Below, one piece after another: positions 56,651 through 58,892 of a stretch of 64,000 nt of DNA (position 1 is the first letter of the stretch; every line of letters begins with the position of its first letter). The notes beneath the pieces are model-generated. The model did not search any database and was not told the DNA's origin. It worked only from the letters and a program-made list of their open reading frames with translations. The stretch spans positions 7,260 through 71,259 of the forward strand of contig CAWJEL010000021.1 of assembly GCA_963841825.1 (NCBI GenBank). The letters run 5' to 3'. This DNA is from an uncultured Chloroflexia bacterium. Its GTDB lineage: Bacteria; Chloroflexota; Anaerolineae; CG2-30-64-16. The translations under genes were made by a program, and so were the position numbers.

Positions 56651-57687
56651 ATGCCCGAACAAATGACGCCAACTAGAGAAGCGGACCTTACACATGGGTT
56701 GTTTAGGGGCCTTGTCGTTGTTGGTAACCAAGCCGTTAACCCTCTTCAACCCACTATAGATGCGGCGCGACAGGCGATAACTGAGGTATACAAGAAAGCG
56801 CTGCAGGATCTTGGCTTGCCCGAGGAGTACCTGAAGTCGATCGGCCGCTCACTAAGCGATTGTGGCTATACCCTCGACCAGCAAATCATAACAACGGTGG
56901 CAGACGCGAACGACAGTGTAATCCCTCATCACAGGCTCAGCGTGAAAGATCAGAGTCGAGAGTGCTACATCGCTCTCCTTTACGTGAGCAGTGCATTGCT
57001 GGCGGATACACGTTCTCCGGGCCTGTAATCGATAAGCTGCTGCCGTTCCAGGCGGCCGCAGGCTATATTGGATTGGCAGTTTTTTCCGATGCGAGTGAAG
57101 TCGCAGGCACGTACAAACAGATGGCTGGAATGCTGCAGAAATCCGCATTGAAAAAAGTTAGAATGATTTCCAAGACAGATTTTGAGCGTTTTGCCTGCGA
57201 AGTTGATAATCGCAAGTGCCTGATTGTCAGAGAGTGGCTTCTTGATGATGCCTTTCAGCCCGCGGTCGCTGTGCCGATTGACCAGCGAGGTTCATTGAAA
57301 TCTGGATCACCACAGGAACACCTGACATACAAGACTTTTGAGATGCAGACTGAAAAGCTGAAGCAGGCGGCGGACCTCTTGGCAAACCAGGCGAGAACGA
57401 TGGAAGACTACTTCGAGACCATCATAGATGCGACCAATTGGCCGCAAAAATGGAAGGACGACGGCAAGGCCAAGACGGCAAAACCGGGAATCACACCCGA
57501 CAAAGCTGCGAATGACCTGCTGGTATTTGCAGTCCGCAAAGGCGATATGCCACACCCGGAAGGATCACCTCCTCGCACGGCGATCGGTGATCTCTTTCGG
57601 GCTGCATGGTCTGACTTTGGTCAGAACGACCGAGATTCTCTCAGCGAACTCATCACGACCTACAATCTCGGGCCAATGCCACAGTAG
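56651..57687 (+). pseudogene. Orphan protein with a C-terminal adaptor-like domain homologous to the N-terminus of the downstream protease; frame change near 57003
   Basis: ATG 56651 (MPEQMTPTREADL...). ...CYIALLYVSSALLA, then the -1 frame continues GYTFSGPVIDKLLPFQAAAGYIGLAVF.... C-terminus TNWPQKWK...PDKAANDLLVFAVRKGDMP.PEG...IGDLF...DFGQNDRDSLSELITTYNL. Confidence 0.6.
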
Positions 57688-57716
57688 AGCACGTTATTGG
57701 GAGTGAGCGTACGATC

Positions 57717-58892
57717 ATGTCTAAAGTCAGCCTCGAGAAGACAGATCGCGACAAATTGGGCGATATCATAGCCAATCAAGCCGATCAGAACGCCCGCGCC
57801 TTCGGAACGGCTCAACGTTACCTGGAAGACCTCATTGATCGCACGAATTGGCCAGGCGCCTGGAAGCGCAAGCGTCGCTATGCTCTTGGGACGTATCCGC
57901 CACGTGATGCTCTGGCATTGATCGACTGGGCGCTCAACCAGGGCACCATTCCTGAAGGTGAGGGCCAGGGATATACCACGCTGGGCAGTCTTCTTGAGGT
58001 CCTCATGCCTGACGTGGGACAGGAAGATCGACTATACCTTGCAGCGGTTATTGCAACCTACCAACTCTATAGGCCGGTCGCATCCCCACCTACGCTCGGC
58101 GTTCATTCCCCTGAAGCGAAGGGAACGACAGCACAACTGAGGGTCTTAGGCCCCGACTTCGAGTGGAAGGGGCCTGATAACGAACTCGAGCTTCAGGCAT
58201 ATCTGAAGCCCGAGCCTGAATTGGTGGACGTTGGCGCTGCAATACGCTTTTGGACGCACGCCTACGAACAAGCCGCTTCGGTCTGCAGGATAGAGTTCGA
58301 GAATATCCCGGGCAGGCAAGGAACCGGTTTTCTGATCGCTAAGGGTCTTGTCCTAACCAACTACCATGTGCTTGCCAACCCAGACGATGCTAAGGATGAC
58401 GCCGATGCAAACGCCCGACATCTCACGCTATGCTTTGGCAAGATCTCCATGACAGGTGGCCAGGCAGCAAGCGAACAACGGTACAAACTCTCTGCGGATC
58501 AGCCAATTGCCGCCCAAAGCTCCGTGGAAGACCTGGACTTTGCCCTATTGCGGACCGAAGAGCGTCTCTGGGAAGAGGAGGGCATCAGACCTCTTCGTCG
58601 CAGCTTGACGGTTCCCGGCGAAAAATCGGCGATTCACCTGCTTGGCTATCCGGTAGGTGAGGATCTACAACTTGCGCGGAGCATGAGTGGCGTGACCTGG
58701 GTAGATGAGAAGCATGGCAAGATCCAGTATTGGACGCGAGGCGAACCTGGGATGAGTGGTTCACCGGGCTTCGATGACGACTGGAATGTGGTGGCCGTTC
58801 ACCATGCAGAGAAAGAGGTGTTCGCAGGCACCAGAAGGGAGGGCATCCTTATCGCATCGATCTACCAACAAGTCAAGGAAATCGTCGGCTAA
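57717..58892 (+). CDS. Trypsin-like serine protease with an N-terminal adaptor-like domain
   Basis: Triad context GTGFLIAKGLVLTNYHVL (His), DLDFALLRT (Asp), GEPGMSGSPGF (Ser). N-terminus TNWPGAWK...PRDALALIDWALNQGTIPEGEG...LGSLL...DVGQEDRLYLAAVIATYQL parallels the previous protein's C-terminus. Confidence 0.85.
   Translation: MSKVSLEKTDRDKLGDIIANQADQNARAFGTAQRYLEDLIDRTNWPGAWKRKRRYALGTYPPRDALALIDWALNQGTIPEGEGQGYTTLGSLLEVLMPDVGQEDRLYLAAVIATYQLYRPVASPPTLGVHSPEAKGTTAQLRVLGPDFEWKGPDNELELQAYLKPEPELVDVGAAIRFWTHAYEQAASVCRIEFENIPGRQGTGFLIAKGLVLTNYHVLANPDDAKDDADANARHLTLCFGKISMTGGQAASEQRYKLSADQPIAAQSSVEDLDFALLRTEERLWEEEGIRPLRRSLTVPGEKSAIHLLGYPVGEDLQLARSMSGVTWVDEKHGKIQYWTRGEPGMSGSPGFDDDWNVVAVHHAEKEVFAGTRREGILIASIYQQVKEIVG

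What the first reader, a model, noticed from the sequence alone, without database searches (positions are those of the whole stretch)
57350..58080. Homologous ~100-aa domain at the C-terminus of one protein and the N-terminus of the next (adaptor pair)
A hand alignment compares …ARTMEDYFETIIDATNWPQKWK…PDKAANDLLVFAVRKGDMPHPEGSPPRTAIGDLF…DFGQNDRDSLSELITTYNL with …GTAQRYLEDLIDRTNWPGAWK…PRDALALIDWALNQGTIPEGEGQGYTTLGSLL…DVGQEDRLYLAAVIATYQL. About one third of positions are identical, including TNWP..WK, P.EG, GQ.DR and TY.L. Paired homotypic domains on a putative sensor and an effector protease suggest recruitment by domain-domain association, as in death-domain-like signalling. The protease would then be activated or targeted by its upstream partner.
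Basis: seen in the sequence. Interest (0 to 1): 0.7.

Follow-up and report, generated by a model that had tools for sequence, protein, structure and literature searches.

The report
Matching adaptor domains link sensor and protease
Two neighbouring genes really do share a ~110-residue helical domain, but it is a divergent copy of the already described bacterial adaptor "EAD8", here tethering a trypsin-like protease to a so far undescribed membrane-linked four-gene cassette that probably acts in anti-invader defence.

Summary
The C-terminus of the upstream protein and the N-terminus of the protease share 36% identity over 107 residues (BLASTP E=6e-15; z=24.9 against shuffles; family profiles 99.7%, E=5e-27).

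The domain is a divergent member of Pfam EAD8 (effector-associated domain 8). Kaur et al. (eLife 2020) proposed such paired domains as homotypic coupling adaptors analogous to death domains.

New here is the context, a conserved cassette A-B-C-D:
- A: about six TM helices plus a cytosolic nuclease-fold-like domain.
- B: an α/β domain plus EAD8.
- C: EAD8 plus Trypsin_2, with an intact H/D/S triad.
- D: a conserved small 4-TM protein.

No NTPase is present, and A, B and D match no Pfam, NCBIfam or PADLOC model.

The coupling is supported by natural fusions (B-EAD-protease, and B-protease without any EAD). In addition, the partner's EAD is the best-matching protease copy for 6 of 11 B copies.

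D sits next to this protease in about 46 of 91 loci read, and next to subtilases elsewhere. This suggests a protease-licensed membrane effector.

In this window A and B each carry a frameshift, as do two unrelated neighbouring genes. Assembly error is more likely than gene decay.

No physical interaction was tested.

The parts
55240..55268 (+). Candidate promoter of the cassette: TTGACA-17 nt-TATAAT, 12 of 12 consensus matches, about 215 nt upstream of gene A.
   Evidence: This is a consensus match only; function was not shown.
55485..56607 (+). Gene A (~373 aa when repaired). It has about six TM helices (55500-56126) and a cytosolic C-terminal domain (56127-56604) with weak PD-(D/E)xK/Hjc-like signals. 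It is interrupted by a +1 frame change near 56230-56240.
   Evidence: tblastn of L005_A hits frame 3 at 55680-56009 and frame 1 at 56239-56577. Alignment with 5 orthologues. HMM map. TM scan. Weak Hjc, DruK and XisH-like hits.
56651..57687 (+). Gene B (~346 aa when repaired). It has an N-terminal alpha/beta domain (56663-57222) and a C-terminal EAD8-like domain. It is interrupted by a -1 frame change near 56990-57015.
   Evidence: AF2 model m24d550a7734e has mean pLDDT 76.5.
57334..57678 (+). EAD8-like domain, copy 1 (C-terminus of B). This is the first half of the finding.
57717..58892 (+). Gene C (391 aa): an N-terminal EAD8-like domain plus a Trypsin_2 serine protease (58104-58886). The catalytic residues are His217 (58365-58367), Asp274 (58536-58538) and Ser347 (58755-58757).
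   Evidence: Pfam Trypsin_2 8.3e-16. 44 homologues, many carrying PF19961. Motif positions.
57723..58073 (+). EAD8-like domain, copy 2 (N-terminus of the protease). This is the second half of the finding. The predicted structure is a six-helix bundle.
   Evidence: PF19961 18.4-18.7 bits, below the gathering cut-off of 27. AF2 pLDDT 94.6, pTM 0.88.
58963..59364 (+). Gene D (133 aa): a highly conserved small membrane protein. It has 3-4 predicted TM helices (4 in the clearest homologues) and a K/R-rich N-terminal tail beginning MSRRIVT. It is a constant neighbour of this protease family.
   Evidence: tblastn 35-45% identity to D of L001, L003 and L005. Alignment A5 has 61% mean column identity. 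Protease-D adjacency. TM scan.

Best explanation
The shared ~110-residue domain is a divergent EAD8 (effector-associated domain 8), a small all-helical, non-enzymatic adaptor. One copy ends protein B and one begins the trypsin-like protease C.

The most likely function is that the two copies bind each other and so tether the protease to B. This step is inferred from comparative data; it was not shown.

B belongs to a four-gene operon, A-B-C-D, that lies on a low-GC island.
- A is a polytopic membrane protein whose cytosolic C-terminal domain always precedes a gene carrying the B-type N-terminal domain. A and B probably form the membrane-anchored sensor or regulatory unit. This is inferred. Both domains look restriction-endonuclease-fold-like, with degenerate catalytic motifs.
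- C has an intact Ser-His-Asp triad.
- D is a small conserved 4-TM protein that travels with this protease whatever adaptor the protease carries. In other phyla D travels with subtilases instead. D is therefore most likely the protease's substrate or effector.

By analogy with Pepco, EACC1 and gasdermin, cleavage of D would unleash membrane damage as an abortive-infection or conflict response. This last step is a hypothesis.

The cassette contains no NTPase, unlike the systems in which EADs were first described.
For: Pair significance.

EAD8 identity:
- Many protease homologues carry precomputed PF19961.
- 23 of 32 aligned domain sequences hit PF19961, best 1.6e-10.
- 25 of 59 atypical-architecture hits do so, best 4.4e-23. 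In P0057 the Pfam match (1490-1590, 37.2 bits, above the cut-off) covers the same residues as my profile match (1486-1594).
- The profile finds 436 cluster representatives. Partner domains are VMAP-C, CHAT, AAA_16/NACHT, Pkinase and TIR, as published for EADs.

Structure: a six-helix bundle with pLDDT 94.6.

Conserved A-B-C-D synteny in unrelated genomic contexts.

Cognate pairing:
- Same-locus B-C identity averages 34.4%, against 25.6% for cross-locus B-C pairs and 24.0% for B-B pairs.
- The same-locus protease copy ranks first among the 11 protease copies for 6 of 11 B copies. My binomial estimate is ~1.6e-4, treating the loci as independent.

Rosetta-stone fusions:
- Five Bn-EAD-protease proteins, with A upstream and D downstream.
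- L043 has Bn fused directly to the protease with no EAD.

D linkage:
- Protease-D adjacency in about 46 loci, and EAD1-type proteases share the same D.
- Peptidase_S8 lies next to D in 6 of 10 tested loci that lack the trypsin-like gene.

Published precedent: PMC7159879, PMC8195603, 10.1101/2023.09.22.558884 (EAD8-STAND plus EAD8-trypsin) and 10.1101/2025.11.14.688446 (protease-licensed pore effectors).
Against: - No interaction was predicted or measured, because no multimer tool was available.
- The window's own two copies do not reach Pfam's EAD8 gathering score. C scores 18.7 bits against a cut-off of 27, and B has no hit.
- A and B are each frame-shifted in this window, so the cassette may be non-functional in this organism.
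- The nuclease-fold assignment of A-Cterm and B-Nterm is weak: HMM E 0.007-0.1, Foldseek E 0.01-0.2, A-against-B profile P=0.003.
- D has no similarity to any characterised effector. Its role as a substrate rests on gene linkage alone.
- No defence-system model matches A, B or D.
- No direct link to phage was found. There are only 2 distant D relatives in 2.9 million viral contigs.
Confidence: 0.7

Rival explanations
1. The EAD8-EAD8 contact is inhibitory rather than recruiting. B, held at the membrane by A, clamps the protease in an inactive state like an antitoxin. A signal releases C, which then acts on D or on other targets.
For: The linkage data cannot separate activation from restraint. 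A constitutively tethered, intact protease next to a potentially toxic membrane protein would need a brake. Operon order, with the regulator before the effector, is compatible.
Against: In natural fusions the B N-domain is covalently joined to the protease, with or without an EAD. Release of the protease therefore cannot be the activating step there. The EAD literature favours recruitment or oligomerisation (PMC7159879).
Confidence: 0.15
2. In this genome the cassette is a decaying pseudogene remnant. The similarity is a historical trace of a duplicated adaptor with no present function.
For: A and B are both frame-shifted. The upstream ORF is absent from the protein database although the identical protease is present. 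The cassette is a low-GC island, so probably a foreign acquisition.
Against: Two unrelated flanking genes (MTTB and GT2) are also split by frameshifts within 2 kb. That pattern points to assembly indels rather than selective decay. Apart from one frame change each, A and B have no in-frame stops and align full-length to their orthologues. C and D are intact, and C keeps its catalytic triad.
Confidence: 0.1
3. The cassette is a housekeeping membrane-signalling or quality-control module, for example regulated proteolysis of a membrane protein. It is not a conflict or defence system. EAD8 then merely assembles a protease complex at the membrane.
For: No defence-system model matches A, B or D. The cassette lies next to housekeeping genes in several genomes, such as ATP synthase, thrS-infC and ccm. 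The window has a two-component system just upstream.
Against: The distribution is patchy across phyla and the genomic contexts differ. The cassette is a compositional island. Adaptors are swapped (EAD1 or EAD8) on the same protease-D pair. The co-occurring domains are CHAT, TIR, STAND, VMAP and patatin. These are hallmarks of conflict systems as described in PMC7159879 and PMC8195603.
Confidence: 0.05

Closest known systems
EAD8 (Pfam PF19961) and the 'EAD principle' of Kaur, Burroughs, Iyer & Aravind (eLife 2020 PMC7159879; eLife 2021 PMC8195603)
   Same: A small all-helical, non-enzymatic domain. One copy sits on a non-effector component and one on an adjacent trypsin-like protease. Adjacent copies are closer to each other than to copies elsewhere. 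The same effector is directly fused in other genomes. Relatives occur on VMAP, STAND, CHAT, TIR and kinase proteins.
   Different: The window's copies are divergent and fall below Pfam's threshold. The partner is not a VMAP, iSTAND, STAND, Ubl or GAP1 core. It is a ~190-residue alpha/beta domain (B) paired with a polytopic membrane protein (A). No NTPase is encoded in the cassette.
nSTAND1-EAD8-FGE sensor plus EAD8-trypsin protease locus (Thiohalocapsa DGR6; 10.1101/2023.09.22.558884; PMC8195603)
   Same: The same adaptor family coupling a sensor protein to a neighbouring Trypsin_2 protease.
   Different: The sensor there is a STAND NTPase with a diversified C-type-lectin/FGE domain. Here no NTPase or lectin is present, and a small TM protein (D) follows the protease.
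Protease-effector modules: Pepco (Trypco1/2), EACC1, bacterial gasdermin (10.1101/2025.11.14.688446; PMC7159879)
   Same: A small protein of unknown function is encoded invariably next to a defence-associated protease. It is associated with more than one protease fold (trypsin-like and S8 here; serine and cysteine proteases for Pepco), and sensors are modular.
   Different: D is an alpha-helical 4-TM protein with no sequence match to Trypco1, Trypco2 or any other Pfam or NCBIfam family. Pepco is a soluble beta-barrel former and EACC1 is an autoinhibited monomer. Cleavage and toxicity of D are untested.
Death-fold adaptors (DD/CARD/PYD) of animal apoptosis and inflammasomes
   Same: Functional logic: homotypic six-helix adaptor domains join a sensor to a protease.
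   Different: No detectable structural or sequence relationship. The best Foldseek E is 2.3, and the ankyrin-G death domain appears only at rank 18 with TM 0.35.

Membership tests
EAD8 (Pfam PF19961) | Each window copy reaches Pfam's gathering score (27 bits) on its own. | tested here: not met
   The protease copy scores 18.4-18.7 bits (E~0.003), matching profile positions 42-96 only. The B copy gives no hit at E<=10.
EAD8 (Pfam PF19961) | Family-level (transitive) sequence membership. | tested here: met
   23 of 32 aligned relatives hit PF19961, best 1.6e-10. 25 of 59 distant-architecture hits do so, best 4.4e-23. P0057 scores 37.2 bits (above the cut-off) on the same residues that my profile matches. 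Homologues P0002, P0004, P0007 and others carry precomputed PF19961. L005_B scores 16.5 bits over profile positions 20-96.
EAD (effector-associated domain) class | A small, non-enzymatic, all-alpha domain. | tested here: met
   The AF2 model of 120 residues has six helices, pLDDT 94.6 and pTM 0.88. There are no conserved catalytic-type residues; the only invariant column is a Gly.
EAD (effector-associated domain) class | Duplicate presence: one copy on a core or non-effector component and one on an effector encoded by the adjacent gene. | tested here: met
   B(EAD)-C(EAD-protease) adjacency in the window and in L003-L010, L012, L065, L072 and L008.
EAD (effector-associated domain) class | [quoted passage not shown] | tested here: met
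   Same-locus identity averages 34.4%, against 25.6% for cross-locus B-C pairs and 24.0% for B-B pairs. The same-locus protease copy ranks first for 6 of 11 B copies. The best match of window_B overall is window_C (34%, next best 27%).
EAD (effector-associated domain) class | The same effector is directly fused to the core component in other genomes. | tested here: met
   Bn-EAD-protease fusions P0035, P0055, P0064, P0115 and P0118. L043 has Bn-protease without an EAD.
EAD (effector-associated domain) class | Physical homotypic interaction between the two copies. | not testable with these tools
   Only single-chain prediction was available, and no solved structure of the family exists.
NTP-dependent EAD-using conflict systems (VMAP/iSTAND MoxR-vWA ternary, STAND, GAP1-GTPase) | An NTPase core (MoxR AAA+ with vWA, a STAND NTPase or a GTPase) in the operon. 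| tested here: not met
   No such Pfam domain occurs in A, B, C or D, or in the orthologous cassettes. The flanking genes are a histidine kinase with a LuxR-type regulator, and MTTB.
Death-like superfamily | A Death-fold six-helix bundle detectable by structure comparison. | tested here: not met
   Foldseek against PDB gave no hit with E<=0.001. The best E was 2.3, and the ankyrin-G death domain ranked 18 with TMq 0.35.
Pepco/Trypco protease-co-occurring effectors | Sequence membership in Trypco1 or Trypco2. | tested here: not met
   None of 8 D proteins hit Trypco1, Trypco2 or any family meaningfully at E<=10. There is no NCBIfam hit and no PDB hit.
Pepco/Trypco protease-co-occurring effectors | A small gene persistently adjacent to a defence-type protease, across protease folds. 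| tested here: met
   Protease-D adjacency in about 46 of 91 loci. Peptidase_S8 lies next to D in L058, L067, L068, L070, L077 and L083.
Pepco/Trypco protease-co-occurring effectors | Site-specific cleavage by the neighbouring protease releases toxicity. | not testable with these tools
   This needs an experiment.
PD-(D/E)xK (restriction-endonuclease fold), for A C-terminal and B N-terminal domains | The alpha-beta-beta-beta-alpha-beta core fold. | tested here: inconclusive
   The B model has the topology H58-70, E80-83, E90-100, E103-112, H121-136, E140-147. The top Foldseek hits are Mus81-Eme1, MspJI, AspBHI, FANCM-FAAP24 and FokI, but with E 0.01-0.2. A gives Hjc E 0.02, DruK E 0.007 and XisH-like 2inb/2okf E 0.1.
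PD-(D/E)xK (restriction-endonuclease fold), for A C-terminal and B N-terminal domains | The conserved catalytic D...(D/E)xK motif. | tested here: not met
   In A the first Asp is invariant, but the middle position varies (Q, D, E, V, S, N, L) and the window copy reads VRVES, with no Lys. B has no conserved acidic or Lys columns.

The most novel reading that the evidence does not exclude
A-B-C-D is an undescribed, NTPase-independent, membrane-anchored conflict system.
- A heterodimer of degenerate nuclease-fold domains (A C-terminus with B N-terminus) senses an invader cue at the inner membrane.
- EAD8-EAD8 tethering brings in the protease.
- The protease then licenses D. D would be a new alpha-helical family of 'peptidase-co-occurring' membrane effectors, also used by subtilases, which kills or depolarises the cell.
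Probability: 0.3. Interest if true: 0.7.

Novelty: new variant of a known kind. Interest (0 to 1): 0.42.

Why it matters
The domain pair itself adds little: it is another instance of the published EAD principle, and the family already has a Pfam entry. Three things about this locus are useful.

1. It shows EAD8 operating outside the NTPase-centred systems in which EADs were defined. Here it is coupled to a compact membrane-linked A/B unit that has no model in Pfam, NCBIfam or PADLOC.

2. The natural series makes a clean, testable case for adaptor-mediated tethering: separate genes with two EADs, then a fusion with one EAD, then a fusion with none.

3. D is a widely distributed, strongly conserved 4-TM protein. 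It follows two unrelated serine-protease folds. It is therefore a candidate for a further class of protease-licensed membrane effector, alongside Pepco, EACC1 and gasdermin.

The cassette is small, with four genes in about 4 kb, which makes it experimentally tractable.

Tried and rejected
- **Word-indexed protein search with the 275-aa upstream ORF:** no hits. The explanation is that the gene is frame-shifted and was never called.
- **The same search with a six-member B alignment:** only 2 hits, because candidates are capped.
- **Exact-sequence contig look-up of the window protease:** not on record.
- **Death-fold hypothesis:** Foldseek of a high-confidence EAD model found nothing significant. 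A PDB sequence-profile search gave only spurious helical-repeat matches.
- **A C-terminal domain homologous to B N-terminal domain (a second homotypic pair):** hhalign gave P~0.003 and probability ~10% in two builds. This is collinear but not significant, so I keep it only as a hypothesis.
- **D as Trypco1/2:** no match.
- **D's N-terminal tail specific to trypsin-linked versions:** rejected. S8-linked D proteins also start MSRR(I/V).
- **The search for related loci with the B alignment:** I used D instead.
- **RNA element in the 215-nt leader:** no Rfam hit.
- **tRNA or integration-site signal:** none.
- **Phage origin:** only two distant D relatives in IMG/VR.
- **Defence-system models:** PADLOC matched only the generic protease domain.
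Full report
**1. Observation**

ORF 56860-57687 and ORF 57717-58892 share a local alignment of 107 residues (aa 171-270 against aa 15-117). Identity is 36% and BLASTP gives E=6e-15. A Smith-Waterman score of 146 compares with 27.2±4.8 (maximum 59) for 2000 shuffles, so z=24.9.

The similarity is not peculiar to this genome. A profile of six orthologous upstream C-termini against a profile of eight protease N-termini gives hhalign probability 99.7% and E=4.6e-27 over 110 columns.

**2. Gene structure**

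The island 55.0-59.4 kb has 51-57% GC, against 60-68% in the flanks. Homologues of the protease (44 found) lie in a recurrent four-gene arrangement in unrelated contexts:
- next to ATP synthase genes in L003 and L004;
- next to a PadR/ABC locus in L005;
- next to thrS-infC in L007 and L009;
- next to a kinase and a permease in L010.

The gene sizes are A (384-415 aa), B (297-346 aa), C (375-391 aa, Trypsin_2) and D (136-144 aa).

tblastn of these neighbours onto the window shows that the same four genes are present, but A and B each change frame once.
- A matches in frame 3 at 55680-56009 and in frame 1 at 56239-56577.
- B runs in frame 2 from 56651 and in frame 1 from about 57000.

This explains two earlier results. 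The ORF also found nothing in the protein database, although the identical protease is there (P0001).

Two unrelated genes just downstream are split in the same way, an MTTB-family methyltransferase and a GT2 glycosyltransferase. That makes four frame changes in 6 kb. Assembly indels are therefore a more economical explanation than selective decay, but I cannot decide this without reads.

A 12/12 consensus σ70-like promoter lies at 55240-55268, upstream of A. No Rfam family and no tRNA is present.

**3. Identity of the shared domain**

Pfam gives only a sub-threshold EAD8 (PF19961) hit for the protease copy (18.4-18.7 bits against a cut-off of 27) and nothing for the B copy. Membership is nevertheless clear at family level.
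- Many protease homologues carry a precomputed PF19961 hit.
- 23 of 32 aligned domain sequences hit PF19961, best 1.6e-10.
- B of L005 scores 16.5 bits over profile positions 20-96.

A profile built from the two window copies plus relatives (A2) was searched against 1.84 billion cluster representatives. It found 436 proteins at E≤1e-3 and 317 at E≤1e-10. Of 59 hits with atypical architectures, 25 match PF19961 (best 4.4e-23). In P0057 the Pfam match (1490-1590, 37.2 bits) covers the same residues as my profile match (1486-1594). The co-occurring domains are VMAP-C, CHAT, AAA_16/AAA_22/NACHT, Pkinase, TIR_2 and TPR.

This is the repertoire reported for effector-associated domains by Kaur et al. 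They defined EADs by three features: paired occurrence on a core component and on an adjacent effector; closer relationship between neighbouring copies; and direct fusions in other genomes. They proposed that EADs are homotypic coupling adaptors analogous to Death-like domains (PMC7159879; PMC8195603). An EAD8-STAND sensor next to an EAD8-trypsin protease has been described in Thiohalocapsa (10.1101/2023.09.22.558884).

**4. Structure**

AlphaFold2 on alignment A2 gives a confident six-helix bundle for the protease copy (pLDDT 94.6, pTM 0.88). Foldseek against the PDB finds nothing significant. The best E is 2.3, and an ankyrin-G death domain appears only at rank 18 with TM 0.35. A PDB sequence-profile search gives only spurious matches. 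The death-domain comparison is therefore an analogy of logic, not of detectable fold.

**5. Tests of the EAD criteria**

(a) *Pairing.* B-EAD followed by C-EAD-protease occurs in the window and in at least ten other loci.

(b) *Cognate closeness.* Same-locus B-C identity averages 34.4%, against 25.6% for B-C pairs from different loci and 24.0% for B-B pairs. The same-locus protease copy is the top-ranked protease copy for 6 of 11 B copies. My binomial estimate, treating loci as independent, is P≈1.6e-4. The best match of the window's B copy overall is the window's C copy (34%, next best 27%).

(c) *Fusions.* Five cluster representatives are B N-domain-EAD8-protease fusions. For two of them the neighbourhood is A-like gene, fusion, then D. 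In L043 the B N-domain is joined directly to the protease with no EAD at all.

The series runs from two genes with two EADs, to one gene with one EAD, to one gene with none. This is the strongest available evidence that the EAD pair replaces a covalent link.

**6. The other parts**

*A.* A has about six TM helices with a K/R-rich N-terminus, which places its ~160-residue C-terminal domain in the cytoplasm. That domain gives weak hits to Hjc (E 0.02), DruK (PD-(D/E)xK, E 0.007) and XisH-like PDB entries (E 0.1). Its first Asp is invariant, but the (D/E)xK position is degenerate, and the window copy reads VRVES.

*B.* The B model (pLDDT 76.5) has an α-β-β-β-α-β-α-β N-domain. The top Foldseek hits are Mus81-Eme1, MspJI, AspBHI, FANCM-FAAP24 and FokI, at E 0.01-0.2. 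No catalytic residues are conserved. A direct A-Cterm against B-Nterm profile comparison is collinear but not significant (P≈0.003). Every B-type N-domain found is preceded by an A-type C-terminal domain. In L043 and L091 that domain is appended to a patatin-like protein. I therefore infer an A:B complex, but have not shown one.

*C.* C keeps His217, Asp274 and Ser347.

*D.* D is the best-conserved component, with 61% mean column identity. It has four TM helices in the clearest homologues and a conserved MSRR(I/V)xT N-terminus. It matches no Pfam, NCBIfam or PDB entry, and specifically not Trypco1 or Trypco2.

A scan of GTDB species genomes found 130 D relatives. They come mainly from filamentous cyanobacteria, and also from Chloroflexota, Gemmatimonadota, Acidobacteriota, Bacteroidota, Planctomycetota, Alphaproteobacteria and Trueperaceae.
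- In about 46 of the 91 loci held, D directly follows this protease. This includes many cyanobacterial proteases whose N-terminus looks EAD1-like by eye instead. Relatives P0033 and P0037 carry PF19955.
- In some cyanobacteria an EAD8-CHASE2 gene follows D.
- Where the trypsin-like gene is absent, 6 of 10 tested neighbours are Peptidase_S8 subtilases.

A small protein tied to two unrelated serine-protease folds is most simply a protease substrate or effector. This parallels Pepco (Trypco1/2) and EACC1, which were recently shown to be pore-forming toxins licensed by site-specific cleavage (10.1101/2025.11.14.688446).

**7. Mechanism proposed**

*Shown:*
- homology of the two domains;
- EAD8 family membership;
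- conserved synteny;
- cognate-pair closeness;
- the natural fusions;
- an intact catalytic triad;
- D-protease linkage.

*Inferred:*
- EAD8-EAD8 binding tethers C to B;
- A and B form a membrane-anchored sensing or regulatory unit through their degenerate nuclease-fold domains;
- activation of C leads to cleavage of D and membrane damage, as a conflict or abortive-infection response.

*Alternatives:*
- an inhibitory clamp;
- a dead cassette in this genome;
- a housekeeping membrane-proteolysis module.

These are listed with their tests in the rival explanations.

**8. Comparison and novelty**

As a system it is a variant. There is no MoxR-vWA, STAND or GTPase core, the A/B unit is undescribed, and the protease partner (D) is an undescribed helical TM protein. 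None of the three has a model in PADLOC. My literature searches on the EAD, EAD8 and Trypco terms turned up no description of this cassette.

Phage origin is unlikely, with only two distant D relatives in IMG/VR.

**9. Verdict**

Interest is moderate. The principle is known, but the cassette is compact and experimentally tractable, and D is a plausible new protease-licensed effector family.

Noticed in passing
window 59518-61195 (-) and 60596-62069 (+): An MTTB-family methyltransferase gene and a GT2 glycosyltransferase gene are each split into two overlapping ORFs in different frames. The Pfam matches continue from one ORF to the next. With the two frame changes in cassette genes A and B, this makes four indels in about 6 kb, which suggests assembly errors in this stretch.
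   Followed up: partly
window 55240-55268 (+): A perfect 12/12 sigma-70 consensus (TTGACA, 17 nt, TATAAT) lies about 215 nt upstream of gene A, leaving a long leader. No Rfam family matches the leader.
   Followed up: partly
window 55000-59400: A compositional island. GC is 51-57% against 60-68% on both sides, coinciding exactly with the promoter plus the A-B-C-D cassette. There is no tRNA or obvious integrase nearby.
   Followed up: partly
L058, L067, L068, L070, L077, L083 (Gemmatimonadota and Bacteroidales genomes): More distant members of the D family (small 4-TM protein) are adjacent to Peptidase_S8 subtilases instead of trypsin-like proteases. D is therefore a 'peptidase-co-occurring' protein across two protease folds.
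   Followed up: partly
L001 9637-11415; also L013, L015, L039, L051: In filamentous cyanobacteria the gene directly after D encodes an N-terminal EAD8 fused to a CHASE2 sensor domain (CHASE2 shown for L001). This suggests a different membrane sensor partner for the same EAD8-protease-D module.
   Followed up: no
L043 2674-4638 and L091 678-3686: The A-type cytosolic C-terminal domain is appended to much larger proteins. The L091 protein carries Patatin and TPR-S domains by Pfam; the L043 protein looks patatin-like by eye only. This would add a possible second effector to the cassette.
   Followed up: no
L012 1758-5815: An Anaerolineae MAG carries two tandem EAD/EAD-protease sets upstream of a single D gene.
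   Followed up: no
window 54754-55170 (+) / 54865-55110 (-): Small overlapping ORFs lie between the LuxR-type response regulator (54055-54735) and the cassette promoter. The + strand ORF has no Pfam match; the - strand ORF was not scanned. They could be a remnant at the island border.
   Followed up: no
P0047 and P0134 (885 and 923 aa): Two relatives carry two EAD8 domains in tandem in front of the protease. This may bear on higher-order EAD assembly.
   Followed up: no
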